Of a DNA stretch of 42,995 bases, positions 6,297 through 32,255 are shown in pieces. Under the pieces are notes generated by a model. That model was not told the DNA's origin. It saw only the letters and a program-made list of their open reading frames with translations, and did not search any database. This DNA is from an uncultured Candidatus Saccharibacteria bacterium (GTDB taxonomy: Bacteria; Patescibacteriota; Minisyncoccia; Phycocordibacterales; DATGWK01), in the NCBI GenBank assembly GCA_964390475.1, contig CAYMIB010000002.1, positions 1 through 42,995 of the forward strand, written 5' to 3'. Position 1 is the stretch's first letter, and each line of letters starts with the position of its first letter. Made by a program: the position numbers and the translations under genes.

Positions 6297-6410
6297 TCGC
6301 TAAGTTTATAAGTAATGGAATTCTACAACATTTACCAAAATTGTATAGCTTAAGTAAGGGTTCCTATTTGGGGCTGTTTGACAGCAATTTTGATGCTAAA
6401 ATGAATAGAT

Positions 6411-6701: not shown

Positions 6702-6729
6702 ATTAAGCGATTAAGCCCAGGCTTCTAGC

Positions 6730-7005: not shown

Positions 7006-7122
7006 GGTTTTATTTTCCTAAAATTAAGCTTCGAAAATAAATAATAATTTAGTAAACACCAAAAGCCACAAGAACTAAAAAAACCACCCTTTTTTATACT
7101 ACTCCCATTAAAATAAATGAAA

Positions 7123-7144
7123 AGACCCAACATGTGCTGGGTCT
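7123..7144 (-). terminator. Intrinsic terminator of the 7167-7460 cassette
   Basis: Minus strand: AGACCCA-gcacatgt-TGGGTCT followed by tttcatttatttta. Confidence 0.7.
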
Positions 7145-7166
7145 TGTTTGCGCTTTTGCGCTTGGT

Positions 7167-7460
7167 TTAGGCGGCGTTGGCGCTCGCGCTCGCGACTGGC
7201 TCCGAGCTCCACAAAATGAAGTTGTTGTTGGGAGTCCATTCGATCACGGTTTTGGGACCGTGATACTGAGCAACGATTGTGAAGAAGATGACTCTTGCTT
7301 CCGCCACCCCCTTGTTGTACCTCTCTCGGGTGAGGTAGTCCCCGACATTGCTCACGTTCTGATTGCCAACGTTGTACATACCGCTAAAGCGCTGGACAAG
7401 CTCATTGAGCTCCTGCCAAGCGGCCGTAACGGATGGGTCGGGTACGATCGGCTTTCGCAT
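7167..7460 (-). CDS. Hypothetical protein (GC-rich orphan cassette 2)
   Basis: The track ORF starts at a GTG (7496). The internal ATG at 7460 has a strong SD (aAAGGAGAccgacATG). 97 aa with no recognised motif. Confidence 0.7.
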   Translation of the reverse strand: MRKPIVPDPSVTAAWQELNELVQRFSGMYNVGNQNVSNVGDYLTRERYNKGVAEARVIFFTIVAQYHGPKTVIEWTPNNNFILWSSEPVASASANAA

Positions 7461-7517
7461 GTCGGTCTCCTTTTTTTGTTTTGCGCTGTTCACCACAAGG
7501 TTTACAGCTCTATGTAC

Positions 7518-11848: not shown

Positions 11849-12526
11849 ATGAATACAAACAATGAACTTATGAAACAGATCGGTTTCTGGGCGGCAATTG
11901 TGGTTGGAATCGGCGCTGTGGTGGCTGGCATGATTTGGTTGGTTTCCATTCAGGCGAAGGCTCCACAAAATGTCGAGGAGTTGGTAATTGAAAATGTCAT
12001 TGCGCCGGATGATTGGGTAAAAGGCAGTCGAACAGCCAAAGTTACTCTCATTGAATACGGGGATTTTGAATGTCCGGGTTGCGCACAGTATGCTTCCGTT
12101 GTAAGTGCTCTCTCCGCAGAGTTTGGCGACAAAATCGCGGTCGTTTATCGACATTTCCCTCTCCCTCAACACACCAACGCTATACCAATGATTTACGTCG
12201 CTGAAGCCGCTGGTTTGCAAGGAAAATTCTGGGAGATGAACGATATGATTTTCGCCAACCAAGCAAAGTGGGTTGGTAAAAGCGATGTCAAAAGTATTGT
12301 GACTGAATACGCTAAAACTCTCGGTCTTGATGTTACAAAGTTCGTTTCAGATTTTGAATCAACAGATCTTCGCAAAAAAGTTGAAACGATTGTTGAGAAA
12401 AATTCCAAAGTCGGCATTACATATACCCCAACTTTCTTCTTAAATGGTAAAAGGATTGCCAACCCGAGAACTTACGCCGATTTCAAAGCAGTGATTGAAA
12501 CTGCGCTCAACGAGCAAGGCGGATAA
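11849..12526 (+). CDS. DsbA-family thiol:disulfide oxidoreductase (membrane anchored)
   Basis: CPGC active site in YGDFECPGCAQY, with an N-terminal TM (FWAAIVVGIGAVVAGMIWLV). I start at the ATG at 11849 rather than the GTG at 11753. Confidence 0.8.
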   Translation: MNTNNELMKQIGFWAAIVVGIGAVVAGMIWLVSIQAKAPQNVEELVIENVIAPDDWVKGSRTAKVTLIEYGDFECPGCAQYASVVSALSAEFGDKIAVVYRHFPLPQHTNAIPMIYVAEAAGLQGKFWEMNDMIFANQAKWVGKSDVKSIVTEYAKTLGLDVTKFVSDFESTDLRKKVETIVEKNSKVGITYTPTFFLNGKRIANPRTYADFKAVIETALNEQGG

Positions 12527-20557: not shown

Positions 20558-21202
20558 ATGGTCTATATTTTTCTGGATGAATCTGGCGATTTGGGCTTTA
20601 ATTTTAAAAAGAAGAAAACTTCGAGGTATTTTATTATTACTGCCCTATTAACAAAAAATAAGACTCAGCTGGAGAAAATAGTTAAGAAAATATTTAGGGA
20701 CCTTGCTCCGAATGAAATTAAAACCCGCGGTGGAACATTGCACGCTCACAAAGAAAGTCCGAAAACAAGGCAAAAATTACTCGGATTATTTCACAATCAA
20801 ACGGGTACAAATATTGCTGTTATTTATATAAAGAAACAGATAGCTCACACAAACTTATTCAAGAAAAAACATCATTTATATTCTCAAATTATAAATGAAT
20901 TGCTCAGTAGAATATGTGAGAAAGAACTAATACCAAAAAATGAGATACTTCACATTTACGCTTCAAGAAGAGAGACCAACCGATCTCTGAATACTCACTT
21001 TTCCTCCTATCTTAAAAAGGAGTTAGAAACCCATTATAAAATAAGTGCTGAGATTTGTGTTCTTTCACCGTCGGCTGAAAAGGGTCTGCAGGTTGCTGAT
21101 ATGATCTCCTGGTCAATTTTCAGAAAATATGAACACGGTGACATAACTTACTACGAGACCATAGCAAAGGAAATTATTGAGGAAAATCAATTACACCCGT
21201 AG
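20558..21202 (+). CDS. DUF3800-family protein
   Basis: 214 aa. The N-terminal VYIFLDESGDLGF motif is typical of DUF3800. It is the only + strand gene in this stretch. Confidence 0.6.
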   Translation: MVYIFLDESGDLGFNFKKKKTSRYFIITALLTKNKTQLEKIVKKIFRDLAPNEIKTRGGTLHAHKESPKTRQKLLGLFHNQTGTNIAVIYIKKQIAHTNLFKKKHHLYSQIINELLSRICEKELIPKNEILHIYASRRETNRSLNTHFSSYLKKELETHYKISAEICVLSPSAEKGLQVADMISWSIFRKYEHGDITYYETIAKEIIEENQLHP

Positions 21203-21318: not shown

Positions 21319-23376
21319 TTATTTCTTATTTTGATATAAGCGTTCCAACTCCGCGATCTCATCGCGTAAAATCGCCGCGGTTTCGAAGTCGAGGATTTTT
21401 ACGGCATTAGACATTTGAAGCTTTTTTTCTTTGAGCAAACCTTTTGGTTTCTTTTTGAAAATTTGAGCGTCGATGGCGAGCAGATTCTGGACAGCCTTTG
21501 AATGTTCGCTTCGCATACTTTCTGAAATATCTCGAATCGCCTTGCTAATCGTTTTCGGAGTAATGCCGTGTTTTTTATTGTATTCGAGTTGAAGGGTTCG
21601 GCGGCGGTTGGTTTCGCCTATCGCTCGTTCCATCGAGCCAGTTACACGGTCGGCGTAAAGCACGACTTCACCCTCGATATTTCGAGCGGCGCGGCCGATA
21701 ATCTGTATTAGCGACGTTTCTGAACGCAAAAAACCTTCCTTATCAGCGTCGAGGATGCCGATGAAAGCCAATTCGGGCAAATCGAGACCTTCTCGAAGCA
21801 GGTTGACGCCAACAAGCACGTCGAACTCGCCACGGCGGAAACGAGTCAAAATTTCTATGCGCTCGATGGTCAAAATGTCACTATGTAAATATTCCGCTTT
21901 GATTTTTCGCTCTTTCAAAAACTCGCTCAGATCTTCCGCCATTTTTTTGGTCAGAGTGGTTGCAACCGCTCGATGCCCGCGTTTTATAAAATCTTCGGCT
22001 TTTTCTATGAAGTCCTGAACTTGGCCTTTGTAGGCGTTTTTCCCACCAGAGGCGCCGACCGAGCTCGCCATCACCGGCAACACGGTAATTTTCGGATCAA
22101 TCAAACCAGTCGGGCGAATCACCTGCTCGACAACATTTTCGCTATGCTCTGCTTCATATTTTCCCGGCGTCGCAGAAGTGTAAATCACCTGCCCGACTCG
22201 TTCCTCAAATTCATTGAACTTCAAGGGGCGGTTGTCTCGGGCTGACGGCAAACGAAAACCGTGATCAATGAGGGTTTTCTTTCGAGCCGCATCGCCGTTA
22301 TACATACCACCAATTTGCGGCACGGTGACATGCGATTCATCAATGATTGTCAGGAAATCCGGCGAACCGTCGGCTTTATGCGGAAAATATGAGAGTAAAG
22401 AATCTGGCGCATCACCAGCGATCCGTCCAGAAAAATGACGCGAATAATTTTCGATTCCACTGCAATAGCCAATTTCGCGGATCAGAGCTAGATCATACCG
22501 AGTGCGACGCTTGAGACGTTCGTGTTCGAGCACCTTGCCTTCTTTTTTAAAAAGTTTGAGCTGTTCTTCGAGTTCAGACTCGATCGTTTTAAGCGCATGT
22601 TCCACTTGCTCAGGGTTGGTAATGAAATGCTTTGCTGGAAAAAGAAAGAAAACTTTTACATCTTCCAAAATAGTGCCCGAAACACCCTCAATTTTTTTAA
22701 TGCTCACAATCTCATCGCCGTTTTTTCCAGTCCCGAGCTCGAGTCGATACACCACTTTTTCGTTGACAGGCATGATTTCGATCGAATTGCCCACCGCTCG
22801 GAATAAACCAGGGGTCAAGTCGGCATTGGTTCGTTCAAAATGAAGACCAATGAGAGCACGCATAAAATCGCCGCGATAGATTCCCTGCCCGCGCTCGATT
22901 CGCATATTTACTTTTTCGTACTCCACTGGACTACCAAGGCCATAAATACACGACACCGAAGCAACAATGATCACATCCTTCCTAGTGAGCAAAGCTTGAG
23001 TCGACGCGTGCCGAAGGCGGTCGATTTCTTCATTTATCTGTGCTTCCTTCTCTATATATGTATCCGTCACCGGCATATAGGCTTCCGGCTGATAATAGTC
23101 GTAGTAGGAAACAAAATAATGCACGGCGTTGTTAGGGAAAAATTCGCGATATTCCTGGGCAAGCTGAGCGGCCAGAGTTTTGTTGTGGGCAATAACCAGC
23201 GTCGGTTTGCCGGCGTTTGCAATGACATTGGCCACCGTAAACGTTTTTCCCGAGCCAGTTACGCCAAAAAGCGTCTGATGCTGCAGACCTTTTTTGAGTC
23301 CGTCAGTTAGACCTTGGATCGCCTTAGGCTGATCACCGGCCGGGGCGAATTCGGATTTGAGGTTAAAGAGGGACAT
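21319..23376 (-). CDS. uvrB: Excinuclease ABC subunit B
   Basis: 685 aa. GVTGSGKT, IIDESHVT and the C-terminal UVR motif FETAAILRDEIAELE. Confidence 0.95.
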   Translation of the reverse strand: MSLFNLKSEFAPAGDQPKAIQGLTDGLKKGLQHQTLFGVTGSGKTFTVANVIANAGKPTLVIAHNKTLAAQLAQEYREFFPNNAVHYFVSYYDYYQPEAYMPVTDTYIEKEAQINEEIDRLRHASTQALLTRKDVIIVASVSCIYGLGSPVEYEKVNMRIERGQGIYRGDFMRALIGLHFERTNADLTPGLFRAVGNSIEIMPVNEKVVYRLELGTGKNGDEIVSIKKIEGVSGTILEDVKVFFLFPAKHFITNPEQVEHALKTIESELEEQLKLFKKEGKVLEHERLKRRTRYDLALIREIGYCSGIENYSRHFSGRIAGDAPDSLLSYFPHKADGSPDFLTIIDESHVTVPQIGGMYNGDAARKKTLIDHGFRLPSARDNRPLKFNEFEERVGQVIYTSATPGKYEAEHSENVVEQVIRPTGLIDPKITVLPVMASSVGASGGKNAYKGQVQDFIEKAEDFIKRGHRAVATTLTKKMAEDLSEFLKERKIKAEYLHSDILTIERIEILTRFRRGEFDVLVGVNLLREGLDLPELAFIGILDADKEGFLRSETSLIQIIGRAARNIEGEVVLYADRVTGSMERAIGETNRRRTLQLEYNKKHGITPKTISKAIRDISESMRSEHSKAVQNLLAIDAQIFKKKPKGLLKEKKLQMSNAVKILDFETAAILRDEIAELERLYQNKK

Positions 23377-23426
23377 TACGGTAGTTATAGCATAATCACG
23401 ATAAAAATTTTAGAGAAATTAAAAAA

Positions 23427-23453
23427 ACGCGGAGTGTCCGAAGACCCCCGCGT
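23427..23453 (-). terminator. Strong intrinsic terminator ending the helicase/hairpin-tail transcript
   Basis: Minus strand: ACGCGGgggtc-TTCG-gacactCCGCGT followed by TTTTTTT. The loop is a cUUCGg tetraloop. This is the first terminator-like structure downstream of the helicase stop. Confidence 0.75.
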
Positions 23454-23456
23454 CTG

Positions 23457-24101
23457 TAGAAGAGAAAAGAACAACTAACTAGACAGAACCCTACGAAACT
23501 GAACACCAGAAACGCCCACAAAGCCTTTCAGCAATGTGAGCCTGTACTCGACCCGAGATCACTGAACAGTACTGCACGATACCACGCATCACATGGCGAT
23601 AATCGAATAGTGCGAGACGTTTTTCAACGCCCTGCACTCTGAACTACAACGAACAAAAGAGGACTTGGCGACACAGTACAATGCGCCAGTAAATCGAACT
23701 CAAATGTACACGAAAGGCCTTTCGGCTTCTCGTGTCGGCACAGAAGATCACAGGAGGCCACCGAACTACAGGTCACGACGCTACAGAGAACCTAACTGGA
23801 CTCAATCAGAAACGCACCAAGGACCTTCCGGCCTCCGGTGCCTGTACCAATCAATACTGTACCTAACAGTACACGACACCAGGTCACTAGAATTACAAGT
23901 GCACAGAAGCCCTTTCGGATTTCTGTGCCGATAGAGAACCGGACCTTAGGGTGCTCTAGAATACAGAACTCCACGGGACAGCACTTAACCTAAAATTGCA
24001 CAGAGTGATCGAAAGATTACTCTGTGCCTAAAGTACACCATACTGTACTCAGCGACACAGAGCGGCAGAGTACAAAAGTGAACCATGTGTCCGGCTACAA
24101 A
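23457..24101 (-). ncRNA. Hairpin-unit tail downstream of the helicase ORF (six hairpin units, no intervening terminator)
   Basis: Family hairpins at 23514-23541, 23610-23637, 23708-23735, 23814-23841, 23901-23928 and 23998-24027. Five are 28 nt (12 bp + GAAA/GGAA on the minus strand) and one is 30 nt. Spacing is 87-106 nt. No credible ORF, and no promoter or terminator between the helicase stop (24102) and 23453. Confidence 0.55.
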
Positions 24102-25940
24102 TTAGAGAAGCAGCTTCTCTGCATCCTTCACCGCGGCGTCAAACGTCAGGTCGCCCATGTAGACTTGCTGAAGATGTTTGGGCAGTGAAGCGAAGACGTG
24201 GCGACGGAACTGTTGGGAAATGAAGAACGTGACGCCAACATCGGAGCGGCTCCGAATGTTGCGTCCACGAACCTGAAGCGCTTGTTGCATTGCCCGCTGA
24301 CCCCAGATCGCCCAGCGCTGACCTCCCCACCGATCCTCCTCGAACTGAGTTCCAGGATCACGAGGGTTTGGATAACTTGGACGAAGAAAAAAGATGACGG
24401 GCGCCATCTGCCTTGGAAGATCAATTCCCTCGGCGTAGTTGGCGGCGGTACCAACCAAAGTACTTCCTTCACCCTGCTTGAAGATGTTGGCAGCTTCCTT
24501 GGCTGTTACACCGTTGCCGTAGCTGATTACCTCGAGACCCTCTTCTGCGGCCATCCGCAAAAAACGATCTCGTTCATCATTTGAAACGACAACCACCAAC
24601 GAACGTAGCCCCTTGTCGGCAAACTGCTTGCATGAACGTGCAATCTGACGCAACGTTTTTGGCAGATCCCGATCGCTCCGCGTATTTCTTGCGAGGTTTG
24701 GCGTGTCGGTTGGCATGTAGACCCTTGTATTGCTGGCTGGGAAATTCGAATCGAGAGACAGGAACGGATCCTTGATCCCCGTTTCGAACCCAAAGATCTC
24801 AGGGTTGCCAATCGTTGCCGACAGCGACACCCGGTTCTTAGGCAAAATCATTTTGATGAGCGGCACTACGTAGTAGCACCGCACCACCAACTTGGTTTGG
24901 AACCGACCTTCTGAGACACGTTCCCTTCTCTGGAATGCGCAGGTGTAGTTGAGTGCCTTCCTTTCTTCGGTTGGCACTGAATACTCAAGCGTTGAGATGT
25001 ACCGCCTGAGATCTCTCACGAGAGTCTCGAGCTTTTTCAATGTGACACGATCCTCACGTGGATCGATCTTGCCCTTTTTCACAGCATCTCTGATAGCAAC
25101 AGCAAGCTCTTTCACATCGATTTCCCGGAGGATTTCGATGAGTTGAAGAACTTGTGCTGGCTTGAGAAGCGCTGCTTCACCAACTGCCATGCGACCAGCG
25201 ATTGAAATCATCTTTCGCCTGAATGTCCTCAGGACTCTTGCGACCTTTGGGGCAACTGACGTCAGAATTTCTTCTGATCGCTTGAGGTGTAGATCAGTAA
25301 TGTCGTAGGAAAGAGAGTTGCGGACGACGTTTGCCAACTGATGCGCCTCGTCGATCACCACACCTTGAGTATTGAACTCCTTTGAAAACAAGTGGGTGAA
25401 GAGAAAGAAGGACATCGTTGAGAGCACAAGCCGTGCTTTCTTTGCCTTATACTTTTGCTGAAGATACGGGCAAGCCGTTGCTCCCTTCACATGAGTCTCG
25501 CCCGTTTCTTGGTCTACCCGATGCGGGCAGTCCTGAAGAAATGAACACGGAATCTGATCGGCACGAGGATTTTCTGGATCATCGACAAGTGTTTCAAGCG
25601 TTTCCGATGAAACTCTCGGCTCGTTCCGGTAATACAAGCACGGATGCTCATTTCGTCCCAAAGCAACTGGCAGATCCGGAAACTCTATCCGAATCTGATC
25701 CAAAATCGTCTTGGTCGGCGTAATGATGAACACCGTACCGTCTGTCTGCGTTCGCATGTAGTTTGCGATCGCAAATTCCACAGCCGTTTTTCCTGTCCCT
25801 GTCGGCGCCTCGATGATTGCAGAGCCATGCTCCGCGTAAAACTCGAGCATGTCGTTTTGCACAACTCGTGGCTCACGATACACCGCCGTGCTTGGAAAGT
25901 GCGTTTTAAGCACTGGCAAGCTGATGGTCTTTTGGCCCAT
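24102..25940 (-). CDS. DinG/XPD (Rad3)-family SF2 helicase with four-Cys Fe-S cluster insertion
   Basis: 612 aa. Strong SD (gaAAGGAGGtccataATG). Walker A APTGTGKT. Cys cluster HPCLYY..IPCSFLQDCPH..ACPYLQ. DEAH box VVIDEAHQL. Motif VI QALQVRGRNIRSRSDVGVTFF. Confidence 0.8.
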   Translation of the reverse strand: MGQKTISLPVLKTHFPSTAVYREPRVVQNDMLEFYAEHGSAIIEAPTGTGKTAVEFAIANYMRTQTDGTVFIITPTKTILDQIRIEFPDLPVALGRNEHPCLYYRNEPRVSSETLETLVDDPENPRADQIPCSFLQDCPHRVDQETGETHVKGATACPYLQQKYKAKKARLVLSTMSFFLFTHLFSKEFNTQGVVIDEAHQLANVVRNSLSYDITDLHLKRSEEILTSVAPKVARVLRTFRRKMISIAGRMAVGEAALLKPAQVLQLIEILREIDVKELAVAIRDAVKKGKIDPREDRVTLKKLETLVRDLRRYISTLEYSVPTEERKALNYTCAFQRRERVSEGRFQTKLVVRCYYVVPLIKMILPKNRVSLSATIGNPEIFGFETGIKDPFLSLDSNFPASNTRVYMPTDTPNLARNTRSDRDLPKTLRQIARSCKQFADKGLRSLVVVVSNDERDRFLRMAAEEGLEVISYGNGVTAKEAANIFKQGEGSTLVGTAANYAEGIDLPRQMAPVIFFLRPSYPNPRDPGTQFEEDRWGGQRWAIWGQRAMQQALQVRGRNIRSRSDVGVTFFISQQFRRHVFASLPKHLQQVYMGDLTFDAAVKDAEKLLL

Positions 25941-26007
25941 TATGGACCTCCTTTCGATGTTACGATGTTACTTTAACGCTCAAACATTAAACAAAAAAAC
26001 AGAACTG

Positions 26008-26026
26008 AAACGCACACGATGCGTTT
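26008..26026 (-). promoter_or_regulatory. Hairpin in the helicase 5' leader (possible attenuator or bidirectional terminator)
   Basis: AAACGCA-n5-TGCGTTT. On the + strand it is followed directly by TTTTTTT. On the minus strand it is preceded by an A-run and followed by cagttctgttttttt. Confidence 0.35.
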
Positions 26027-26060
26027 TTTTGTCAAAAAGCTTAAATTACCTCCGGGCGCG

Positions 26061-26089
26061 AGAATATCACATTTATTTTAATTTGTAAA
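26061..26089 (-). promoter_or_regulatory. Extended -10 sigma70 promoter for the helicase transcript
   Basis: Minus strand: TTTACAaattaaaataaatgTGaTATTCT with a 17-nt spacer. Same design as the array promoters. Confidence 0.6.
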
Positions 26090-26114
26090 GCATTGGTCGC
26101 ACGTCTCGCTAGCA

Positions 26115-26383
26115 TAAAAAATGCCAGCAAATCTTTCGAAATGCTGGCCTGCACTATAGGAAACTGCACAATACGTAACATTACCTCACTCTACTTCGAT
26201 CAAATTGTCGGTTGCAGATTTCTCAGCAACCGACCAGTAGACCAGAAAAACTTACGGGACATTACCATGGTGTACGATACCCCACAGTATGAAGTGTCGA
26301 TCGAGTTTTTCAACCCGACCGACCCGCGCAGAACAATACCCTGCCGGACCGTAGACTTGTTAACTGAACCACGGGGCTTGTTC
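26115..26383 (-). ncRNA. Hairpin-RNA unit U7 (2 hairpins)
   Basis: Runs from the promoter in module A to the terminator GCCAGCAtttc-GAAA-gatttGCTGGC + AUUUUUU (26123-26148). Family hairpins at 26207-26234 and 26295-26322. Confidence 0.55.
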
Positions 26384-26389
26384 GATATT

Positions 26390-26446
26390 AGAATAACACG
26401 CCAGATTTGGCTTGTAAAGTAAAAGCCGAGGGTTGGGTACCTCGGC
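26390..26446 (-). promoter_or_regulatory. Fused terminator-promoter module A
   Basis: Minus strand: GCCGAGG-tacccaac-CCTCGGC cttttacTTTACA -17 nt- TGtTATTCT. The hairpin is at 26425-26446, the -35 at 26413-26418 and the -10 at 26390-26395. Confidence 0.6.
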
Positions 26447-26809
26447 GAGTAGAACACGGAGCTGAAGGCAAGGGCACGTTAGAAAGGTTGACCCTACGAC
26501 ACTGAACCGGAAGTGTTGGCTTTGTGTTCCCACAAAACTAACCTATAGAGAACTGAACATAACTCGAGTGTAGGATACCTAGCTGGACTCTAATGAAATT
26601 GTCAGTTCGACCTTTCGACCAAACTGACCTATAGGAAAGGAAACGCGAGATCACAACGCTGGACAGTACTCCACCTGACGCTACTCAACATTACTCAACT
26701 AAAATTGTCATCCGGATTTTTCAACCCAGATGACCCATAGAATGCAGTACACCACCGCACGGCACCTCACACCACTTGAGGCTACTCAACATTACTGAAC
26801 CCAAGTTCC
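26417..26809 (-). ncRNA. Hairpin-RNA unit U6 (3 hairpins)
   Basis: Lies between the module B promoter and the module A terminator. Hairpins at 26515-26542, 26601-26628 and 26707-26734. Confidence 0.55.
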
Positions 26810-26815
26810 AAAAGG

Positions 26816-26872
26816 ATAATAACACGGAATATAATTTTTGTAAAATAAAAGCCGAGGGTTGATTACCTCGGC
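26816..26872 (-). promoter_or_regulatory. Fused terminator-promoter module B
   Basis: Minus strand: GCCGAGG-taatcaac-CCTCGGC ttttatTTTACA -17 nt- TGtTATTAT. Hairpin at 26851-26872, -35 at 26839-26844, -10 at 26816-26821. Confidence 0.65.
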
Positions 26873-27663
26873 GTACACTGTGGTCGACTTCGCATGACGA
26901 TACGAAACTAGACACGAACAAACTTGAAGTGTTGGCTGACCTTTTCAAGTCCGCCAACGAGCAGTGCGACAAACATTACTATAGTGCACAACACAATACA
27001 GTGCGCTATTTACCAGGTGGTCAAAAGTGTCAGTCGAGCCTTTCGGTCCAACTGACCCAAACATCACGTTAGGAGAGAGTGCCTTACTGCACAATACCTA
27101 GCCTGACAAGACCAGACAAATCGTCAGCGAGATCTTTGAACCTCGCTGACCCATACAGCAGTTTACTATTCCTTACTAGACTGAGCTATGCTCTAGAACA
27201 GTGAACCGCGTTTATCTATTACAATATCTCAACCGATTTTTTCAAACCGGTCGAGCCTTAGAATACCGTGATGTAGAAGACAGGAGACTACGTCGCCATA
27301 CTCGACCTGAGTCTACCCGACGGTGAAAATTTGTCAGTCCAGTTTTCACCAAACTGACCGAAAGTGGAGAACACTTAGGTATACGGCACAATACCGTACG
27401 ATACCCTGGCGAACTAAAACGTCAGTTCAACCTTCCGGCTAGACTGACCTACAGATAACTGAACCTGACTCGAACGCAGGTTACCTAGCTGGACTCTAAT
27501 GAAATTGTCAGTTCGACCTTTCGACCAAACTGACCGATAGAAAACTCAACTTGGCGGAACAAAACTGGACGCAACTAGAATTGTCATCCGGATTTTTCAA
27601 CCCAGATGACCAGTACTGCTCAGTAGCCAACTGCGCGGGACTCAACCTTGCAATACTCTATCC
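26843..27663 (-). ncRNA. Hairpin-RNA unit U5 (8 hairpins, longest unit)
   Basis: Hairpins at 26931-26958, 27029-27056, 27123-27150, 27228-27255, 27333-27358, 27421-27448, 27507-27534 and 27583-27610. Bounded by the module C promoter and the module B terminator. Confidence 0.55.
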
Positions 27664-27669
27664 GAATGC

Positions 27670-27724
27670 ATAATAACATGAATTATTTTTTTGTAAAATA
27701 AAAACCGAGGGTTGGTTACCTCGG
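27670..27724 (-). promoter_or_regulatory. Fused terminator-promoter module C
   Basis: Minus strand: CCGAGG-taaccaac-CCTCGG tttttatTTTACA -16 nt- TGtTATTAT. Hairpin at 27705-27724, -35 at 27692-27697, -10 at 27670-27675. Confidence 0.6.
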
Positions 27725-28099
27725 CGAAAAGCTAAGTGCCAATCACTTCTTTCGAAGAGAATGGCCCATACACAGCGGTACCGCACGCCAGGCCACCTGA
27801 CCTTACAGTGGTACACGAAGCTGAAATTGCTAGTCGAACTTTTCAGTTCGACTAGCCGGTACAAGACTCATGAGTACACGACCGAAGTCAACAGAACACT
27901 ACCGGAAATGTCAGCGTCACCTCTCGGCGAAACTGACCTACAGAGGAGTCAACACTGGGTTGCTGCACAAAACTCTACCTAACACTGCTACACGAAAGGA
28001 CAAAATGTCGAACTTGTGTTTCCACAAGATCGACCCTCAGAACACAAAGCCAGACTGGACAGAGCAACACACCACTAAACCATGTTATAAAAGCTGTCT
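27697..28099 (-). ncRNA. Hairpin-RNA unit U4 (4 hairpins)
   Basis: Hairpins at 27738-27765, 27829-27856 (perfect 12 bp + GAAA), 27910-27937 (GAGA loop) and 28007-28034. Confidence 0.55.
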
Positions 28100-28105
28100 A
28101 GCAAG

Positions 28106-28159
28106 ACAATAACACAAATTATTTTTTTGTAAAGAAAAACCGGCCACTTGGACCGGTTT
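28106..28159 (-). promoter_or_regulatory. Fused terminator-promoter module D (terminates the 86-aa ORF, promotes U4)
   Basis: Minus strand: AAACCGGtccaagtggCCGGTTT ttcTTTACA -16 nt- TGtTATTGT. The hairpin sequence differs from the other modules, but the promoter half is conserved. Confidence 0.6.
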
Positions 28160-28177
28160 GTGCTGTGACTCAGAGAT

Positions 28178-28438
28178 TCACTCGAACAAATAGAAGAGCT
28201 CTCCCTTCACGAGATCCTTCTCCTCAACCTCAATTTTCCCCTCAATCTCCTTAAGGATTTCTTTCCAATTCTCGGTGTTCTCACCAGTCCGGTATGTGAA
28301 TCTCTCAGCAATAGACTCACACCGTCCACCACCCTCTTGCCTTTGGCAGAGAATTCTGTCGGCCTCTTCCCGATTTTCAGCCAGAATCACGTAGCTGGTC
28401 AAGCCTGGTCCTGTGTAAATGTACGCCTTCAATTCCAT
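28178..28438 (-). CDS. Orphan 86-aa protein occupying one slot of the RNA-unit array
   Basis: The internal ATG at 28438 has the SD aAGGGGAaagtcATG. The track start at 28513 abuts the upstream terminator with no room for a promoter or RBS. Product MELKAYIYTGPGLTSYVILAENREEADRILCQ... has no motif I recognise. Confidence 0.6.
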   Translation of the reverse strand: MELKAYIYTGPGLTSYVILAENREEADRILCQRQEGGGRCESIAERFTYRTGENTENWKEILKEIEGKIEVEEKDLVKGELFYLFE

Positions 28439-28475
28439 GACTTTCCCCTTCGTTTGTGTGTTTGGATCTTTTCTC

Positions 28476-28504
28476 AGAGTATCATAAATATAAATACTTG
28501 TCAA
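28476..28504 (-). promoter_or_regulatory. Extended -10 promoter of the 86-aa ORF
   Basis: Minus strand: TTGACAagtatttatatttaTGaTACTCT with a 17-nt spacer. Confidence 0.55.
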
Positions 28505-28518
28505 ATGGACCATTCATA

Positions 28519-28800
28519 ATAAAAAAGTCGAGGATTGGTTACCTCGACGCGCACCAGGGTAAAGACTAGGCTACGAAACAAAACGGAACACTACTTTGCG
28601 AAATTGAAATTATTAGCTGAGCCTTTCGACCCAGCTAATCTACAGAGGAACAGACTGAGGTTAACGGTGCGATACGTTACCGTACGCCGCCTTAGACCAA
28701 ATTGTCAATCTCGCCTTTCAGCCAGACTGACCCGGAGAGTACTACAGTCAACAGCGGTAGACGGTAGATCACTGCACGTGAGTGAAGAACATCACGATCC
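28519..28800 (-). ncRNA. Hairpin-RNA unit U3 (2 hairpins)
   Basis: Hairpins at 28612-28639 (AUUAG.../...CUAAU base) and 28704-28731. Confidence 0.55.
28521..28548 (-). terminator. Terminator E (ends unit U3)
   Basis: Minus strand: GTCGAGG-taaccaat-CCTCGAC followed by TTTTTTATTAT. Same hairpin family as modules A-C, F and G, with a compensatory stem change. Confidence 0.65.
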
Positions 28801-28806
28801 GCACTC

Positions 28807-28862
28807 ACTATAACACGAATATCGTTTTTGTAAAATAAAAGCCAAGGGTTGGGTACCTCGGC
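28807..28862 (-). promoter_or_regulatory. Fused terminator-promoter module F
   Basis: Minus strand: GCCGAGG-tacccaac-CCTTGGC ttttatTTTACA -16 nt- TGtTATAGT. The stem has a G.U pair on the minus strand, which would be an A.C mismatch on the + strand. Confidence 0.6.
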
Positions 28863-29043
28863 GAGTAGGAAGGTGGACACCAGAAGACGATGCGAAACAC
28901 AACAGTAAAACACTGAACTTTATTTTTTTGAATTGTCAGCCCAGTTTTTCAACCGGACTGACCCGCAGACAACTACACAGCAGTAGAGTACACGTCACAT
29001 CACGCAACTCGACCGTGCAAAACGTAACCTCAATTACTTTTCT
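28833..29043 (-). ncRNA. Hairpin-RNA unit U2 (1 hairpin)
   Basis: Single hairpin at 28935-28962, identical in sequence to the inverted copy at 30833-30860. Confidence 0.55.
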
Positions 29044-29049
29044 TCAAAG

Positions 29050-29105
29050 ACAATAACATGGATTTATATTTTGTAAAATAAAAGCCAAGGATTGGTTACC
29101 TTGGC
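29050..29105 (-). promoter_or_regulatory. Fused terminator-promoter module G
   Basis: Minus strand: GCCAAGG-taaccaat-CCTTGGC ttttatTTTACA -16 nt- TGtTATTGT. The stem carries a compensatory G-C to A-U change relative to modules A-C. Confidence 0.6.
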
Positions 29106-29744
29106 GTAGAGTGGAGTACACAGAACGACACTGAAGAGTGCAAGAGGATACCGCACACCACGTCACCTCAGACCACGCTAAAGCGTCAGCTCGATTTTTC
29201 AATCAAGCTGACCCGTACCTGGGAATACAACAGCTTGCTGGACGAGAGACTAGCGTACACTACTGGACCAAAGCGTCAGCTTAGTTTTTCAACCAGGCTG
29301 ACCAGCACGGAAGTCCGGCCCACGAGACATGGCTAGACACCACTTCAAATTGTCGGCATCACCTTTCGGTGTAACCGACCGGCACAGAACTCTGCCGTAG
29401 CTTACAGGGCTATACGTAACAGAGCCACAGACAAAATTAAATTGTCGACCGTGTGTTTCCACAAGATCGACCCTTAGCACAGCACAGTTAACGGCAGAAC
29501 ACGGCAGTTCACGGCACTTGAGTGTAGATCAAAGTGTTAGCCCAGCATTTCTACCGGGTTAACCAGCAGTGTACATCACCGCACATTACCAAAGACGACG
29601 TCACGCTACGAAACCTCACTTCAAAATTGTTGGCACCGCGTCTCCGCGATGCCAACCCATAGAGCACCGGACGCGACCTGGCGATACCTAACAATACCTT
29701 GGGTGACAATACCCTGGGTGACTGTACCCAACTTAGATCGATCC
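29076..29744 (-). ncRNA. Hairpin-RNA unit U1 (6 hairpins)
   Basis: Hairpins at 29185-29212, 29275-29302, 29352-29379, 29444-29471, 29536-29563 and 29629-29656. The 5' end is inferred from the putative promoter at 29751-29779. Confidence 0.5.
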
Positions 29745-29750
29745 TCACAA

Positions 29751-29793
29751 AATCTACTATCATGTTGACACGAAGTCAACCGTATGTTAAGTT
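29751..29793. promoter_or_regulatory. Back-to-back divergent promoters sharing a palindromic -35 region
   Basis: + strand: TTGACAcgaagtcaaccgtaTGtTAAGTT (29765-29793, 17-nt spacer) for the 242-aa gene. Minus strand: TTGACT -17 nt- TAGATT (29779 down to 29751) for U1. gTTGAC-acgaa-GTCAAc is a perfect inverted repeat. Confidence 0.5.
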
Positions 29794-29880
29794 TCGCCCG
29801 GACTCAAGAGTGAGGGCGTTGTGCCGCTCGCCTGAGATTTCTTTCAAGGGCTTGAAAAAGCCACAGTACGGAGAAAGACC

Positions 29881-30609
29881 ATGAAGCGTTTGCTGATCAC
29901 GTGTGTTGGTGCGTATCCCATCATGATGGACCCGATGACTGATGAAGTGCTCGACAGCCTCGCAACAGGCGTCCGTGTTCAGATCCAGAAGGATCTGTCT
30001 CATGCCGATGTCGCTCGCAAGAAGATCTACCGCGAGAATGGCGACAAGGATGGTCGGATCGGCCTGCCGACCGAAATGCTTTTCGCGGCATTGGTTGCGG
30101 CAGGTCGCAAGGTTTCCTACCGAGGCAAAACCAATATCTCGACCGCTGAAACCTCCATGTTGCCCGGCCTGCTCACGATCAACGAGGACTTCCTGCCGTT
30201 CCCAATTCCGGACGGCGCGACCGAGCCGAAGTGGACGGTCGACAAGCGGCGTGGACGTCTGGAGAACGGTACGGCTGTGTGCTTGCGTCGTCCCAAGTTC
30301 GCCGACTGGGGTTTCGAGGTCACCATTGACTTCGATGACAAGGAGATCAGCGAGGGCAAGGTTCGAGAACTCTTCAACATCGCCGGCCGGTTCTGCGGAC
30401 TCGGATCTTTCCGACCGAGCTGCAAGGGTCCGTTTGGTCGGTTCGCGGTCCAGAAACTCGCCGACATCACGCCCACCGAATGGGCGAATGAGCCGGCTGA
30501 GGAAATCGAAGAGGGCGACGACACTGACCAGACTGGCGGCGAAGAGCGCCGGACTGGCAACAGTCATGGCAGGACCGGGACCAGGAACGGCGCGCTCGCG
30601 GGAGCTTGA
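29881..30609 (+). CDS. GC-rich 242-aa hypothetical protein with RAMP-like glycine-rich motif (possible RNA-binding/processing protein)
   Basis: SD acGGAGaaagaccATG. Of three overlapping long frames this is the only one with an RBS and a balanced composition. GLGSFRPSCKGPFGRF, near the end of the folded part, resembles the RAMP/Cas6-type G-rich loop (weak). Acidic disordered tail. The functional call is low confidence. Confidence 0.75.
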   Translation: MKRLLITCVGAYPIMMDPMTDEVLDSLATGVRVQIQKDLSHADVARKKIYRENGDKDGRIGLPTEMLFAALVAAGRKVSYRGKTNISTAETSMLPGLLTINEDFLPFPIPDGATEPKWTVDKRRGRLENGTAVCLRRPKFADWGFEVTIDFDDKEISEGKVRELFNIAGRFCGLGSFRPSCKGPFGRFAVQKLADITPTEWANEPAEEIEEGDDTDQTGGEERRTGNSHGRTGTRNGALAGA

Positions 30610-30698
30610 ACCGGCAACTGACGTTCTTCAGAAGGCAATGTTGTTTTGTAGTGCATAGTAAACAGCAGTTGCGTCATGCGCGTTTCTGTTCACTATCG

Positions 30699-30756
30699 CG
30701 GGCGTCCTGAAAAGGGCGCCCGTTTTTCTTTACTAAATCGAAATTTGTGTTATCTT
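30699..30756 (+). promoter_or_regulatory. Fused terminator-promoter module on the + strand
   Basis: CGGGCGTCCT-GAAA-AGGGCGCCCG (10 bp + GAAA) followed by TTTTTcTTTACT -16 nt- TGtTATCTT. Same layout as the minus-strand modules. Confidence 0.6.
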
Positions 30757-30762
30757 GGCGTT

Positions 30763-30964
30763 TGGACTCAAGTAGACTAGTGTTCCGTTGAGTACAGCAG
30801 GCTTGAGTATGGATCAGTTCTCTTTTCCGCGGGTCAGTCCGGTTGAAAAACTGGGCTGACGATTAGACCTCAGTTTTGTGTTCCACAGTTCGCTCGTGTG
30901 ACGTGATGTCCATTTAAGTTCCGTTTTCTGTCCGCCAGGGTATCCAATCCCTGGCTTTTATTTT
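30763..30964 (+). ncRNA. Inverted (plus-strand) hairpin-RNA unit, paralogue of U2
   Basis: Hairpin at 30833-30860 (GTCAGTCCGGTT-GAAA-AACTGGGCTGAC). Terminator GCCAGGG-tatccaat-CCCTGGC + TTTTATTTT at 30934-30964, abutting the tgt stop codon. Confidence 0.55.
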
Positions 30965-30965
30965 C

Positions 30966-32255
30966 TTACACTAGATACTTTCCCAAAAACCCCCCCTTAA
31001 ACTCCGCGAACTTCCCTTCTAAAATCGCTTGGCGCATGTTTTCTACCAAATGCACGATGAAATAAAGGTTATGAATGGTCGCCAGCGTCGCGGCCAACAT
31101 TTCATCGGCCCGAAACAAGTGTGATAGATAAGCTCTGGTGTAATTTTTGCAGGTATAGCATTCGCAGTCGGCGTCAGGCCGAGAAAAATCACGGACATAC
31201 TTTGCATTGGTGAGATTAATTTTTCCGCTCGCGGTGTACAGTCCACCGTTTCGAGCGACTCTGGTCGGCGCGACGCAGTCAAAAAGATCAACACCGTTTT
31301 CGACACCCATAAAAAGATCTTCTGGCTCGCCTATGCCGAGCAAATGTCGTGGTTTTTCTTTTGGTAAAATTTCGTTCACCCACTGTACGGCCGTGATCAT
31401 GTCTTCTTTGGCAAAAGAACCACCGATGCCGAAGCCATCGAAACTCTGACCAGAAGCTGGGCCGCGCATGTCGGCAATCGCCTGGGCGCTTTCTTTACGC
31501 AAAATCTCCGAACGGCCGCCCTGAACAATTCCAAAAAGAGCAATTGGCGGTTTGTCTGCGGCCGCCCGCTCGGCCGAAAGTTTTTGGTGATGTTCAAGCG
31601 ACCGCTTCGCCCAGCGATGAGTGCGATCGAGAGCTTCGCGTTGATAATGATTCGATTCGTGTGGCGAAGTACATTCATCAAAAGCAAAAATTATGTCGGC
31701 GCCGAGATTGTGCTGAATTTCCATCGACTTTTCCGGCGTGAAGTAATGCGCACTGCCGTCGAGATGCGACCGAAATGTCACACCGTTTGGATCAATCGAA
31801 GCGATTTTTGGTTTCTCCTCACTGTCGCGACCATTTCCACCACCAACACTTCCTTCAGTTCGTTCGGCAAGCTGTAGTTCTTCGTCGCCCTCCACTGCAT
31901 GACCTTTTACAATTTTGCTAATCCCCTTTCCATACGCCGCACCAAGAGAGAAAACCTGAAAACCGCCAGAGTCGGTCATGGTCGGCCCTGGCCAATTCAT
32001 AAATTTCTGCAAACCTCCAGCGTCACGAACGAGTTCATCGCCCGGCTGAAGAAAAAGGTGGTATGTGTTGGCCAAAACAACCTGCGCACCGGTCTCGCGA
32101 ATTTGCTCAGGGGTAAGCGACTTGATAGTGGCCTTAGTAGCCACGGGGACAAAAGCCGGGGTCAAAATAGTGCCGTGGGGAGTTATAAGTTCGCCCGCAC
32201 GAGCTCTCGTGCCAGGCAACTCGGCTTTTATATTGAAAACAAAAGGTTTTTTCAC
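30966..32255 (-). CDS. tgt: tRNA-guanine transglycosylase (queuine tRNA-ribosyltransferase) with internal insertion
   Basis: 429 aa. TPAFVPVATKATIKS, TDSGGFQVFSL, FDECT and the zinc site CECYTCKNYTRAYLSHL. Carries an extra acidic/Gly-rich segment after FSLG. Confidence 0.9.
   Translation of the reverse strand: MKKPFVFNIKAELPGTRARAGELITPHGTILTPAFVPVATKATIKSLTPEQIRETGAQVVLANTYHLFLQPGDELVRDAGGLQKFMNWPGPTMTDSGGFQVFSLGAAYGKGISKIVKGHAVEGDEELQLAERTEGSVGGGNGRDSEEKPKIASIDPNGVTFRSHLDGSAHYFTPEKSMEIQHNLGADIIFAFDECTSPHESNHYQREALDRTHRWAKRSLEHHQKLSAERAAADKPPIALFGIVQGGRSEILRKESAQAIADMRGPASGQSFDGFGIGGSFAKEDMITAVQWVNEILPKEKPRHLLGIGEPEDLFMGVENGVDLFDCVAPTRVARNGGLYTASGKINLTNAKYVRDFSRPDADCECYTCKNYTRAYLSHLFRADEMLAATLATIHNLYFIVHLVENMRQAILEGKFAEFKGGFLGKYLV

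What the first reader, a model, noticed from the sequence alone, without database searches (positions are those of the whole stretch)
26235..29628. Unique 48-78-nt linkers between hairpins give a spacer-like layout
The linker lengths I measured are 60, 58, 78, 70, 66, 77, 77, 62, 58, 48, 63, 53, 69, 64, 62, 49, 64, 64 and 65 nt.
- Linkers are mostly unique in sequence.
- They look G-poor and A/C-rich on the + strand, so G/U-rich in the RNA. Examples: cacaacacaatacag and cacctcacaccac.
- They share only scattered short words, such as actgaac and gtacgatacc.

Structured handle plus variable segment is formally analogous to repeat/spacer or scaffold/guide RNAs. If a nuclease cut at the conserved AAUUU or CURYAG flanks, each product would be a roughly 60-nt variable segment carrying a 3' hairpin, like Cas6-processed crRNAs.

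This is hypothesis only. The repeats are not identical and the spacing is much longer than in CRISPR arrays.
Basis: inference. Interest (0 to 1): 0.7.

Follow-up and report, generated by a model that had tools for sequence, protein, structure and literature searches.

The report
VIPR guide-RNA array with helicase
The hairpins and "linkers" are an array of about 42 guide RNAs of a VIPR system, a CRISPR-like RNA-guided DNA-recognition system first described in 2026 preprints. This copy sits in the chromosome of a candidate-phyla-radiation bacterium next to its small RAMP protein and a DinG/XPD-type helicase.

Summary
The linkers are unique in sequence, and the hairpins show strong covariation.

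On the minus (RNA) strand every linker is a run of 8-16 pentamers, G-Y-N-N-N, in exact register with the hairpin that follows it.

The ORF at 29881-30609(+) is a Vipr-family RAMP protein:
- A profile of 36 homologues hits PDB 36pp, "SUSP1 Vipr protein", at E=1e-11.
- The AlphaFold2 model has a Cas7/Csm3-like fold.

The locus is therefore a VIPR system (Viral Interference Programmable Repeat; bioRxiv 10.64898/2026.04.26.720920). Each unit is a vrRNA made of a pentamer guide tract plus a 3' hairpin tail. The accessory gene is a DinG/XPD-type helicase with Fe-S cysteines.

The locus is larger than reported, spanning about 23434-30955. It holds about 42 vrRNAs in three arrays and about 10 promoter/terminator units.

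Guides shared between different genomes keep only the two bases that follow G-Y (23 of 24 matches, against 1 of 12 at the third variable base). This supports a 2-of-5 code like the published GGY/NN code.

I found no targets. The scaffold/guide idea is right in spirit. CRISPR membership and Cas6 processing are not supported. This is a new member of a known kind.

The parts
29881..30609 (+). vipr gene: 242-aa Vipr-family RAMP protein. The RRM core, thumb and G-loop (GLGSFRPSCKGPFGRF) are present. The C-terminal ~45 residues are low-complexity.
   Evidence: A profile of 36 homologues hits PDB 36pp_D 'SUSP1 Vipr protein' at E=1.2e-11 over its full length. The AF2 model has pLDDT 89.4. Foldseek top hits are type VII Cas7 and Csm3 at E~5e-6, and viral RAMP-like proteins at E=2e-11. 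There are no Pfam, PADLOC or NCBIfam hits.
24102..25940 (-). Accessory (vap-like) gene: 612-aa DinG/XPD/Rad3-family SF2 helicase with GSGKT, DEAH and a 4-Cys Fe-S module.
   Evidence: Pfam Helicase_C_2, DEAD, ResIII and DEAD_2. PADLOC typeIV_DinG model PDLC01439 at E=5.6e-41 over its full length. NCBIfam cas_csf4 scores only 29 bits against a cut-off of 400. The best PDB sequence hits are XPD. C101, C138 and C157 are invariant and C132 nearly invariant in 22 homologues. It lies next to vipr in every genome locus with enough flank but one (L018).
26120..29737 (-). Main vrRNA array, containing the finding: 32 vrRNAs in seven promoter/terminator units, interrupted by one small gene. Each vrRNA is 8-16 G-Y-N-N-N pentamers followed by a 3' tail, which is either a 28-nt hairpin or the unit's terminator hairpin.
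   Evidence: Tails start at 29629, 29536, 29444, 29352, 29275, 29185, 29084(T), 28935, 28841(T), 28704, 28612, 28527(T), 28007, 27910, 27829, 27738, 27583, 27507, 27421, 27333, 27228, 27123, 27029, 26931, 26851(T), 26707, 26601, 26515, 26425(T), 26296, 26207 and 26120(T). T marks a terminator used as a tail.
23434..24083 (-). Second vrRNA array, downstream of the helicase gene: 7 vrRNAs. Tails are of the GCAC(A/C)G...type at 23998, 23901, 23814, 23708, 23609 and 23516, and the last one ends in terminator 23434-23455.
   Evidence: Period-5 G-Y tracts, sequence and pentamer parsing. The same placement is seen in L001, L003, L005, L007 and L020.
30643..30955 (+). Third array, on the plus strand downstream of vipr: 3 vrRNAs with tails at 30698-30723 (terminator), 30833-30860 (hairpin identical to the one at 28935-28962) and 30934-30955 (terminator). 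An internal promoter-like TTTACT-N16-TATCTT lies at about 30727-30755.
26601..26699 (-). Example vrRNA, with 14 of 14 pentamers in frame: GUuga GUaau GUuga GUagc GUcag GUgga GUacu GUcca GCguu GUgau CUcgc GUuuc CUuuc CUaua G + tail GUCAGUUUGGUCGAAAGGUCGAACUGAC + AAUUU.
29751..29779 (-). Promoter-like site of the first unit (TTGACT-N17-TAGATT). This unit carries 7 vrRNAs and ends at terminator 29084-29105.
29050..29105 (-). Terminator/promoter module: GCCAAGG-N8-CCTTGGC-UUUUAUUUUACA, in which the U-run overlaps the -35 TTTACA, followed by N16 and TATTGT. Similar modules lie at 28807-28862, 28106-28159, 27670-27725, 26816-26872 and 26390-26446. There is a terminator only at 28527-28548 and a promoter only at 26061-26089.
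   Evidence: 15 promoter-like sites against 4.6 expected, and 17 terminator-like sites against 5.7 expected. Repeat families D4, D6-D8.
28178..28438 (-). Orphan 86-aa gene inside the array, with its own promoter, RBS and terminator (28137-28159). It is probably not a core part of the system.
   Evidence: There are only 2 weak homologues in 1.8 billion representatives. It is absent from the related loci.

Best explanation
The region is the main guide-RNA array of a chromosomal VIPR (Viral Interference Programmable Repeat) system in a Patescibacteria (CPR) genome.

Proposed mechanism:
1. The minus strand is transcribed from about 8 sigma-70-type promoters into short polycistronic RNAs. Each ends at an intrinsic terminator.
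2. Each RNA is cut, by an unknown RNase, into vrRNAs of about 75-105 nt. A vrRNA consists of about 11 pentamers, 5'-G-Y-N-N-N-3', followed by a 12-bp GNRA hairpin or the terminator hairpin as a 3' tail.
3. By homology with the solved SUSP1 complex, one Vipr protomer binds each pentamer. It sequesters G-Y and the preceding degenerate base, and presents the two bases after Y.
4. The filament then reads double-stranded DNA through a gapped code: two paired bases, then one skipped base.
5. The adjacent DinG/XPD-type Fe-S helicase is the accessory effector. It presumably loads at the R-loop and unwinds or strips the target, probably a phage or other mobile element.

Shown here:
- anatomy, pentamer periodicity and hairpin structure;
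- Vipr homology;
- linkage of vipr and the helicase across genomes;
- selection on two of the five pentamer positions.

Inferred only:
- expression and processing;
- filament assembly;
- the 1-nt skip;
- the role of the helicase;
- the anti-phage function.
For: Vipr homology:
- Profile hit to PDB 36pp 'SUSP1 Vipr protein' at E=1.2e-11 over its full length.
- AF2 model with pLDDT 89.4 and a Cas7/Csm3-like RAMP fold.

vrRNA definition in the VIPR preprint:
- 9-16 pentamers plus a structured 3' tail, ~100 nt long, in arrays flanking vipr.
- Alternative repeats NNNGG, YNNNG and NNNNG.
- Accessory helicases or nucleases in types III-V.

Match in the window:
- Pentamer positions 1 and 2 carry 1.0 and 1.2 bits; positions 3-5 carry 0.03-0.04 bits.
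- The median is 11 pentamers per guide (range 8-16) over 42 guides.
- All tracts are in register with the tail.
- The periodicity count is 91, against a mean of 0.02 in shuffles.

Tail structure:
- 94.3% of cells paired and 12 of 12 pairs covarying.

Transcription signals:
- Promoter and terminator matches are on the minus strand and enriched over shuffles.

Conservation across genomes:
- vipr, the array, the helicase and a second array recur in Patescibacteria loci.
- The tail type changes between lineages. In L001 it is GGGCAG...CUGCC.

Code:
- Guides in genomes whose Vipr proteins are only 67% identical share the a,b positions at 23 of 24 sites, but the c position at 1 of 12 and S/Y states only in part (L001 against L040).
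- A second pair (L005 against L009) gives 17 of 18 at a,b and 5 of 9 at c.
- About 1.6e-4 windows with 16 of 16 a,b matches are expected by chance (my estimate from the number of windows compared); 2 were seen.

G-loop:
- SUSP1 D177, which contacts G1, aligns to Ser in the window protein. W178 and R179, which contact G2 and Y3, align to Phe and Arg.
- This fits an N-G-Y-N-N motif.

Self-targeting:
- None above shuffled controls in 586 kb of host DNA from the window and relatives. The preprint reports the same.
Against: - No target was found. Seven IMG/VR scans used exact seeds from six window guides, and an eighth used the guide shared by L001 and L040. They gave only chance-level hits whose extensions matched at 0-2 sites.
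- INPHARED gave nothing under a contiguous-triplet reading.
- There are no expression or processing data.
- The 1-nt skip rule was demonstrated only for type II (GGY/NN) systems and is assumed here.
- The VIPR type could not be checked against the authors' tables, which are not held.
- Sequence identity to SUSP1 Vipr is low. The link rests on a profile hit plus the fold.
Confidence: 0.88

Rival explanations
1. This is a degenerate or atypical CRISPR array, for example of a type IV-like system. In that reading the hairpins are repeats, the linkers are contiguous spacers and processing is by Cas6.
For: - The layout alternates hairpins with unique segments.
- The adjacent helicase hits a PADLOC 'typeIV_DinG' model at E=5.6e-41.
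- The adjacent RAMP protein has a Cas7-like fold.
Against: - The repeats are not identical. Their mean column identity is 64% and only the structure is kept.
- Tandem Repeats Finder reports no array in this region.
- There is no cas1, cas2, cas6, csf1 or csf3.
- The "spacers" carry a fixed G-Y every 5 nt. Acquired protospacers would not.
- Cross-genome conservation is limited to 2 of 5 positions.
- NCBIfam Csf4 scores 29 bits against a cut-off of 400.
Confidence: 0.03
2. This is an array of structured small RNAs or protein-binding decoys that do not guide anything. Examples would be sponge RNAs for the helicase or an RNA-binding protein, or terminator/REP-like filler. The pentamer periodicity would then reflect only protein packaging.
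For: - No target was found.
- Function has not been shown experimentally for this subtype.
Against: - The three non-G-Y positions are essentially random, yet two of them are conserved between distant genomes while the third is not. This indicates information content, not packaging alone.
- The protein is homologous to an experimentally proven guide-binding protein.
- 42 different sequences are maintained.
Confidence: 0.06
3. This is a VIPR-like system whose reading rule differs from the published one. It might read three bases per pentamer or use another skip length, and it might target RNA or host genes for regulation rather than phage DNA.
For: - The motif has three variable positions per pentamer rather than two.
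- The skip rule is untested for this type.
- The locus is chromosomal and syntenic across relatives.
- Some guides are conserved across genera, which would suit conserved cellular or long-lived targets.
Against: - The c position is not conserved when a,b are: 1 of 12 in the best pair, and 0.29 overall in a,b-selected pairs.
- No self-match above the null was found under seven alternative rules in local host DNA. However, only ~0.3 Mb was available.
Confidence: 0.15

Closest known systems
VIPR systems (Viral Interference Programmable Repeat): Vipr + vrRNA. Type II examples are Escherichia phage SUSP1 and a Pseudomonas fulva prophage (bioRxiv 10.64898/2026.04.26.720920 and 10.64898/2026.04.26.720927).
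   Same: - A small single-RRM RAMP protein homologous to SUSP1 Vipr.
- ~100-nt RNAs made of 9-16 tandem pentamers with fixed and variable positions, capped by a conserved 3' structure.
- Arrays that flank the vipr gene.
- One accessory gene.
- No CRISPR array and no adaptation genes.
- No self-targets.
   Different: - The pentamer is N-G-Y-N-N (the preprint's 'YNNNG' variant), not G-G-Y-N-N.
- The tail is a plain 12-bp GNRA hairpin or a terminator, not a pseudoknot.
- The accessory gene is a DinG/XPD Fe-S helicase, not a DNA-binding Vap1.
- The locus is chromosomal in Patescibacteria and shows no phage genes in the window.
- The array is very large, with ~42 guides in ~10 promoter/terminator units.

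By elimination from the preprint's text, this is probably its helicase-associated type IV: types III-V carry nucleases or helicases, and only types III and V carry nucleases. I could not verify this.
Type IV CRISPR-Cas (Csf complex + CasDinG/Csf4)
   Same: - A Cas7-like RAMP filament on a guide RNA, paired with a DinG-family helicase.
- No nuclease.
- Interference by binding and unwinding is plausible.
- The helicase matches one PADLOC typeIV_DinG model over its full length.
   Different: - There is no CRISPR repeat array.
- There is no Csf1, Csf3 or Cas6.
- The guide is gapped rather than contiguous.
- The helicase keeps the 4-Cys Fe-S module, fails the NCBIfam Csf4 threshold, and is closest to XPD among solved structures.
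- From my own knowledge, not tested here: CasDinG has a vestigial Fe-S domain without the cysteines.
Cas6-processed class 1 crRNAs
   Same: A variable segment followed by a 3' hairpin handle, with many units per transcript.
   Different: - The hairpins are conserved in structure only.
- No Cas6 is present.
- The variable segment is periodic and only partly informative.
TIGR-Tas arrays (PMC12045711)
   Same: Non-CRISPR tandem guide arrays found in phages and parasitic bacteria.
   Different: - The TIGR-Tas effector is a Nop-domain Tas protein, whereas this locus has a RAMP protein and no Nop-domain hit.
- The unit architecture here is different.

Membership tests
VIPR system | A Vipr protein: a minimal RAMP with a single RRM, thumb and G-loop, homologous to described Vipr proteins. 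| tested here: met
   Profile hit to PDB 36pp_D 'SUSP1 Vipr protein' at E=1.2e-11, covering residues 2-193 against 2-192. AF2 model with pLDDT 89.4 and Cas7/Csm3-like Foldseek hits. G-loop GLGSFRPSCKGPFGRF.
VIPR system | vrRNA genes: at least 4 tandem pentanucleotide repeats of YNNGG or a related consensus (NNNGG, YNNNG, NNNNG) in the intergenic DNA flanking vipr. | tested here: met
   42 tracts of 8-16 pentamers G-Y-N-N-N, which is YNNNG in the preprint's frame. Information content is 1.0, 1.2, 0.03, 0.03 and 0.04 bits. The periodicity count is 91 against 0.02 in shuffles. Definition taken.
VIPR system | A conserved structured 3' tail after the repeat tract. | tested here: met
   A 12-bp hairpin with 94.3% of cells paired, 12 of 12 pairs covarying and 0 of 500 shuffles reaching the observed values. 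The shape differs from the SUSP1 pseudoknot.
VIPR system | A minimal locus: vipr plus one accessory (vap) gene, with no CRISPR array and no other cas genes. | tested here: met
   The only genes in the island are vipr, the helicase and an orphan 86-aa ORF. vipr and the helicase are linked in every genome locus with enough flank but one (L018).
VIPR system | vrRNAs are expressed, ~100 nt long, and co-purify with Vipr. | not testable with these tools
   Only promoter and terminator consensus matches are available. Unit lengths of 69-109 nt follow from the anatomy.
VIPR system | Noncontiguous DNA recognition: NN of each repeat pairs and one target base is skipped. | tested here: inconclusive
   Selection on exactly the two bases after G-Y is supported (a,b 23 of 24 against c 1 of 12). 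No natural target was found, so the skip length is untested.
Type IV CRISPR-Cas | A CRISPR array of near-identical direct repeats with contiguous spacers. | tested here: not met
   TRF finds no array here. The hairpin copies are 60-91% identical to each other. The linkers carry a fixed G-Y frame.
Type IV CRISPR-Cas | Csf1 (Cas8-like), Csf2 (Cas7), Csf3 (Cas5) and usually Cas6/Csf5. | tested here: not met
   There are no PADLOC, NCBIfam or Pfam hits for the RAMP protein or the small ORF, and the island has no other ORFs.
Type IV CRISPR-Cas | CasDinG (Csf4) helicase. | tested here: inconclusive
   PADLOC PDLC01439 typeIV_DinG hits at E=5.6e-41 over its full length. NCBIfam TIGR03117 scores 29 bits against a cut-off of 400. 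PDB sequence hits are XPD/Rad3, not CasDinG.
Canonical CRISPR-Cas (any type) | Adaptation genes cas1 and cas2, and repeats homogenised by acquisition. | tested here: not met
   There are no such ORFs in the window island, and the repeats are heterogeneous.

The most novel reading that the evidence does not exclude
The helicase-linked, chromosomal VIPR of Patescibacteria may be a functional and evolutionary bridge between viral VIPR and type IV CRISPR-Cas. In this reading, a Vipr filament reads a gapped 2-of-5 code and recruits an Fe-S DinG/XPD helicase to the R-loop to clear or silence invaders. It would do so with a large, slowly evolving, non-adaptive guide library, some of whose guides are conserved across genera. 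That would make it an innate, germline-encoded RNA-guided immune repertoire in ultra-small symbionts that are usually thought to be poor in CRISPR.
Probability: 0.3. Interest if true: 0.7.

Novelty: new member of a known kind. Interest (0 to 1): 0.5.

Why it matters
VIPR systems were described only in 2026 preprints, and only phage-borne type II systems have been worked out. This locus is an unusually clear example of the helicase-associated form with the 'YNNNG' repeat.

- It has ~42 guides with clean boundaries, promoters and terminators.
- It lies in a CPR bacterium.
- It has syntenic relatives that allow evolutionary tests.

The cross-genome comparison made here gives sequence-only evidence for which pentamer positions carry specificity in this subtype. 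The locus also supplies a natural pairing of a Vipr filament with a DinG-type helicase. That pairing bears on how type IV CRISPR-Cas works and where it came from.

For genome annotation it shows two things. Such arrays are invisible to CRISPR and tandem-repeat finders. They can nevertheless be found with a simple scan for G-Y at period 5.

Tried and rejected
RNA family and gene checks:
- Rfam at gathering threshold over the window, and at E<=1 over 23300-31000, gave only two tRNAs elsewhere and a sub-threshold suhB hit at 30664-30737. There are no ribozymes between units.
- A CRISPR reading was rejected (see the membership test).
- The ORFs overlapping the array (for example 26093-26422+) are not credible. 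A 5-nt periodicity is incompatible with coding.

Target searches:
- Self-target search used 42 guides under 7 reading rules (ab-, -bc, abc, abc-, --abc, ab, ab--) against 586 kb, counting both strands, of the window and related loci. Observed scores equalled those of shuffled guides, apart from the trivial self-match.
- Eight IMG/VR scans used exact seeds. Five took 9 repeats under ab- and two took 7 repeats under abc-, drawn from six window guides. One used the guide shared by L001 and L040. Hits per scan were 0, 1, 0, 0, 2, 1, 0 and 1.
- The hits from the five scans that matched all failed extension, with 0-2 matches in 8-14 extension positions. That number of hits is about what chance would give for 18 specified bases.
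- blastn of the concatenated NNN triplets of all guides against INPHARED phages gave no match even at E<=10.
- The conserved cross-genome guides were searched at periods 2-5 in 1.0 Mb of local loci, counting both strands. Only the guides themselves matched.

Other dead ends:
- The authors' type tables and figures are not held, so the VIPR type could not be confirmed.
- The homologue search for the 86-aa ORF found essentially an orphan.
- A pseudoknot between the GAAA loop and the 3' UUU flank was considered and rejected on geometry. One or two linker nucleotides cannot span a 12-bp stem.

Full report
**Setting**

The window is a bacterial chromosome segment. It carries uvrA, uvrB, tgt, glycogen genes and two tRNA-Ala genes. 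GC is about 0.40-0.45 across most of it.

An island at roughly 23400-30960, between uvrB and tgt, has GC of 0.45-0.55. The closest relatives are metagenome-assembled Patescibacteria. Two genomes labelled Candidatus Saccharibacteria share the same uvrB-island-tgt synteny.

**Check of the observation**

On the minus strand between 26207 and 29656 there are 26 stem-loops of 28 nt. Each has a 12-bp stem and a four-base loop, usually GAAA.

- Only 1 of 171 linker pairs shares a 12-mer.
- Plus-strand linker composition is A 0.34, C 0.26, G 0.21, T 0.20. The linkers are A/C-rich as stated, but T-poor rather than G-poor.
- The hairpin is a real RNA structure. Over 70 copies from the window and two relatives, 94.3% of cells pair. 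All 12 pairs show changes on both sides, no shuffle reaches the observed values, and slid registers pair at 30-44%.

Read on the minus strand, every linker is periodic with period 5 and in exact register with the hairpin that follows it.

- Counting back from the hairpin, positions at distance 1 mod 5 are G (or C). Positions at distance 0 mod 5 are U (or C). The other three positions are random.
- Over 42 tracts and 473 pentamers the information content is 1.00, 1.20, 0.03, 0.03 and 0.04 bits. The median is 11 pentamers per tract, with a range of 8-16.
- A window-wide scan for G-T at period 5 finds 91 high-scoring positions in the region, against a mean of 0.02 in shuffles. It finds almost none elsewhere in the 43 kb, with two exceptions.
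- Those exceptions are 23460-23999 on the minus strand, downstream of the helicase gene, and 30863-30937 on the plus strand, downstream of the 242-aa ORF. Both hold further tract-plus-hairpin units.
- The intrinsic terminators that divide the region are themselves preceded by in-phase pentamer tracts. They therefore serve as the tail of the last unit of each transcript.

In all I count about 42 units: 7 at 23434-24083(-), 32 at 26120-29737(-) and 3 at 30643-30955(+).

**Transcription**

Promoter-like and terminator-like sites lie almost entirely on the minus strand and are enriched over shuffles: 15 against 4.6, and 17 against 5.7.

A recurrent module is GCCGAGG-N8-CCUCGGC-UUUUAUUUUACA-N16/17-TATTAT. 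It fuses a terminator to the next promoter, with the U-run overlapping the -35 element. This module splits the main array into units of 7, 2, 3, 4, 9, 4 and 3 guides, plus one unit that carries an orphan 86-aa gene.

**The neighbouring genes**

*The 242-aa ORF (29881-30609+).* It has no Pfam, NCBIfam or PADLOC hit. It has 40 homologues, all unnamed and from Patescibacteria or metagenomes.

- A profile of 36 of them hits one PDB entry, 36pp 'SUSP1 Vipr protein', at E=1.2e-11 over the full length.
- The AlphaFold2 model (pLDDT 89.4) matches Cas7 of type VII systems and Csm3 in the PDB, and viral RAMP-like proteins in BFVD.

*The 612-aa ORF (24102-25940-).* It is a DinG/XPD/Rad3-family helicase with GSGKT, DEAH and four conserved cysteines.

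- It hits one PADLOC typeIV_DinG model over its full length (E=5.6e-41).
- It falls far below the NCBIfam Csf4 cut-off and is closest to XPD among solved structures.

*Linkage.* In every related genome locus with enough flank but one (L018), vipr and this helicase are neighbours. Period-5 tracts lie between them and after the helicase.

**Identification**

Two 2026 preprints describe VIPR systems (10.64898/2026.04.26.720920 and 10.64898/2026.04.26.720927). Their main points, are:

- A minimal RAMP protein (Vipr) binds vrRNAs of ~100 nt.
- A vrRNA is 9-16 pentamers (YNNGG) with a structured 3' tail. Some clades use NNNGG, YNNNG or NNNNG instead.
- One protomer binds each repeat and sequesters GGY.
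- The NN bases pair with DNA, with one target base skipped per repeat.
- There are seven types. Types III-V carry nucleases or helicases.

The window matches every feature of this definition that sequence can test. Its pentamer G-Y-N-N-N is the 'YNNNG' form.

The preprint says only types III and V have nucleases. By elimination the helicase-associated type should be its type IV. I could not check this, because the figures and tables are not held.

**Which positions carry information**

Call the three variable positions a, b and c, in 5'-to-3' order after G-Y. I compared 202 guides from the window and related loci.

- When guide pairs from different loci are selected on a,b similarity, there are 13 pairs with at least 13 of 16 matches, against 3 in a shuffled control. 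Selection on b,c gives 3 against 4. Selection on a,c gives 4 against 2.
- In the a,b-selected pairs, c matches at the chance rate of 0.29.
- Two pairs are perfect at a,b over 8 pentamers. I estimate about 1.6e-4 such windows are expected by chance.
- The best pair is L001 against L040, whose Vipr proteins are 67% identical. It agrees at a,b in 23 of 24 positions over 12 pentamers, but at c in 1 of 12. Several G/C and U/C states also differ.
- This is the signature of selection on two of the five bases, as in the published GGY/NN code with the first G degenerate.
- The G-loop alignment fits. The Asp that reads G1 in SUSP1 Vipr aligns to Ser here. The Trp and Arg that hold G2 and Y3 align to Phe and Arg.

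**Targets**

None were found.

- No self-targets above shuffled controls appear under seven reading rules in 586 kb (counting both strands) of the window and related loci.
- Eight exact-seed scans of IMG/VR returned only chance-level hits that fail extension.
- A contiguous reading finds nothing in INPHARED.
- These searches were exact-match and covered six of the 42 window guides. The negative result is therefore weak.

**Verdict**

It is wrong in its particulars: this is not a repeat/spacer array, there is no Cas6, and the guides are not contiguous spacers.

The locus is a new member of the recently described VIPR class. The features worth recording are:

- the N-G-Y-N-N repeat;
- plain hairpin or terminator tails;
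- a DinG/XPD Fe-S helicase as partner;
- a chromosomal location in Patescibacteria;
- a very large guide set organised in many terminator-promoter modules.

Noticed in passing
window 28178-28438 (-), terminator 28137-28159: An orphan 86-aa gene sits inside the vrRNA array, with its own TTGACA-N17-TACTCT promoter, RBS and terminator. It has only two weak homologues among 1.8 billion representative proteins and is absent from the syntenic relatives.
   Followed up: partly
window 23434-24083 (-) versus 26120-29737 (-); L007 1534-2401 versus 4631-7461: There are two classes of tail hairpin. GUCAG...CUGAC occurs in the array between vipr and the helicase. GCAC(A/C)G...-type stems occur in the array downstream of the helicase. 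The same split is seen in L007.
   Followed up: partly
L001 10905-10963, L040 7595-7651, L005 ~8978, L009 ~12244-12282: Individual guides are conserved between genomes of different genera at the two specificity positions only. This implies long-lived, shared targets. In L040 the shared guide lies immediately after the vipr stop codon.
   Followed up: partly
window 29691-29722: The 15-nt tandem repeat reported by TRF is a duplication of three pentamers (GUcac CCagg GUauu) inside the first guide of the array. This is a possible trace of how guides grow.
   Followed up: no
window 26515-26664 versus 27421-27570: A segment of 138 nt, holding about one and a half vrRNA units, is duplicated at 80% identity. 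The differences are spread over the a, b and c positions. This suggests that guides arise by duplication and divergence.
   Followed up: partly
L001 10620-12600 (+): In a more distant relative, vipr, the array and the helicase all lie on the same strand. The tail is a different hairpin (GGGCAG...CUGCC) of variable loop length. The tail therefore changes with lineage while the G-Y frame is kept.
   Followed up: partly
L010, L014, L016 (vipr-helicase intergenic regions): These loci have vipr and the helicase but almost no G-Y period-5 tracts by my scan. They may use another pentamer consensus.
   Followed up: no
window 26008-26089 (-): A promoter-like site (TTTACA-N17-TATTCT) is followed by a short hairpin with a U-rich tail, just upstream of the helicase start codon. 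It could be a leader or attenuator for the helicase gene.
   Followed up: no
window 20558-21202 (+): A DUF3800 gene lies between the sensor kinase and uvrB, about 2 kb outside the island.
   Followed up: no
window 30664-30737 (+): A sub-threshold Rfam hit to suhB/mmgR (25 bits against a gathering score of 41, E=0.068) overlaps the terminator-tail after vipr. It is most likely chance.
   Followed up: no
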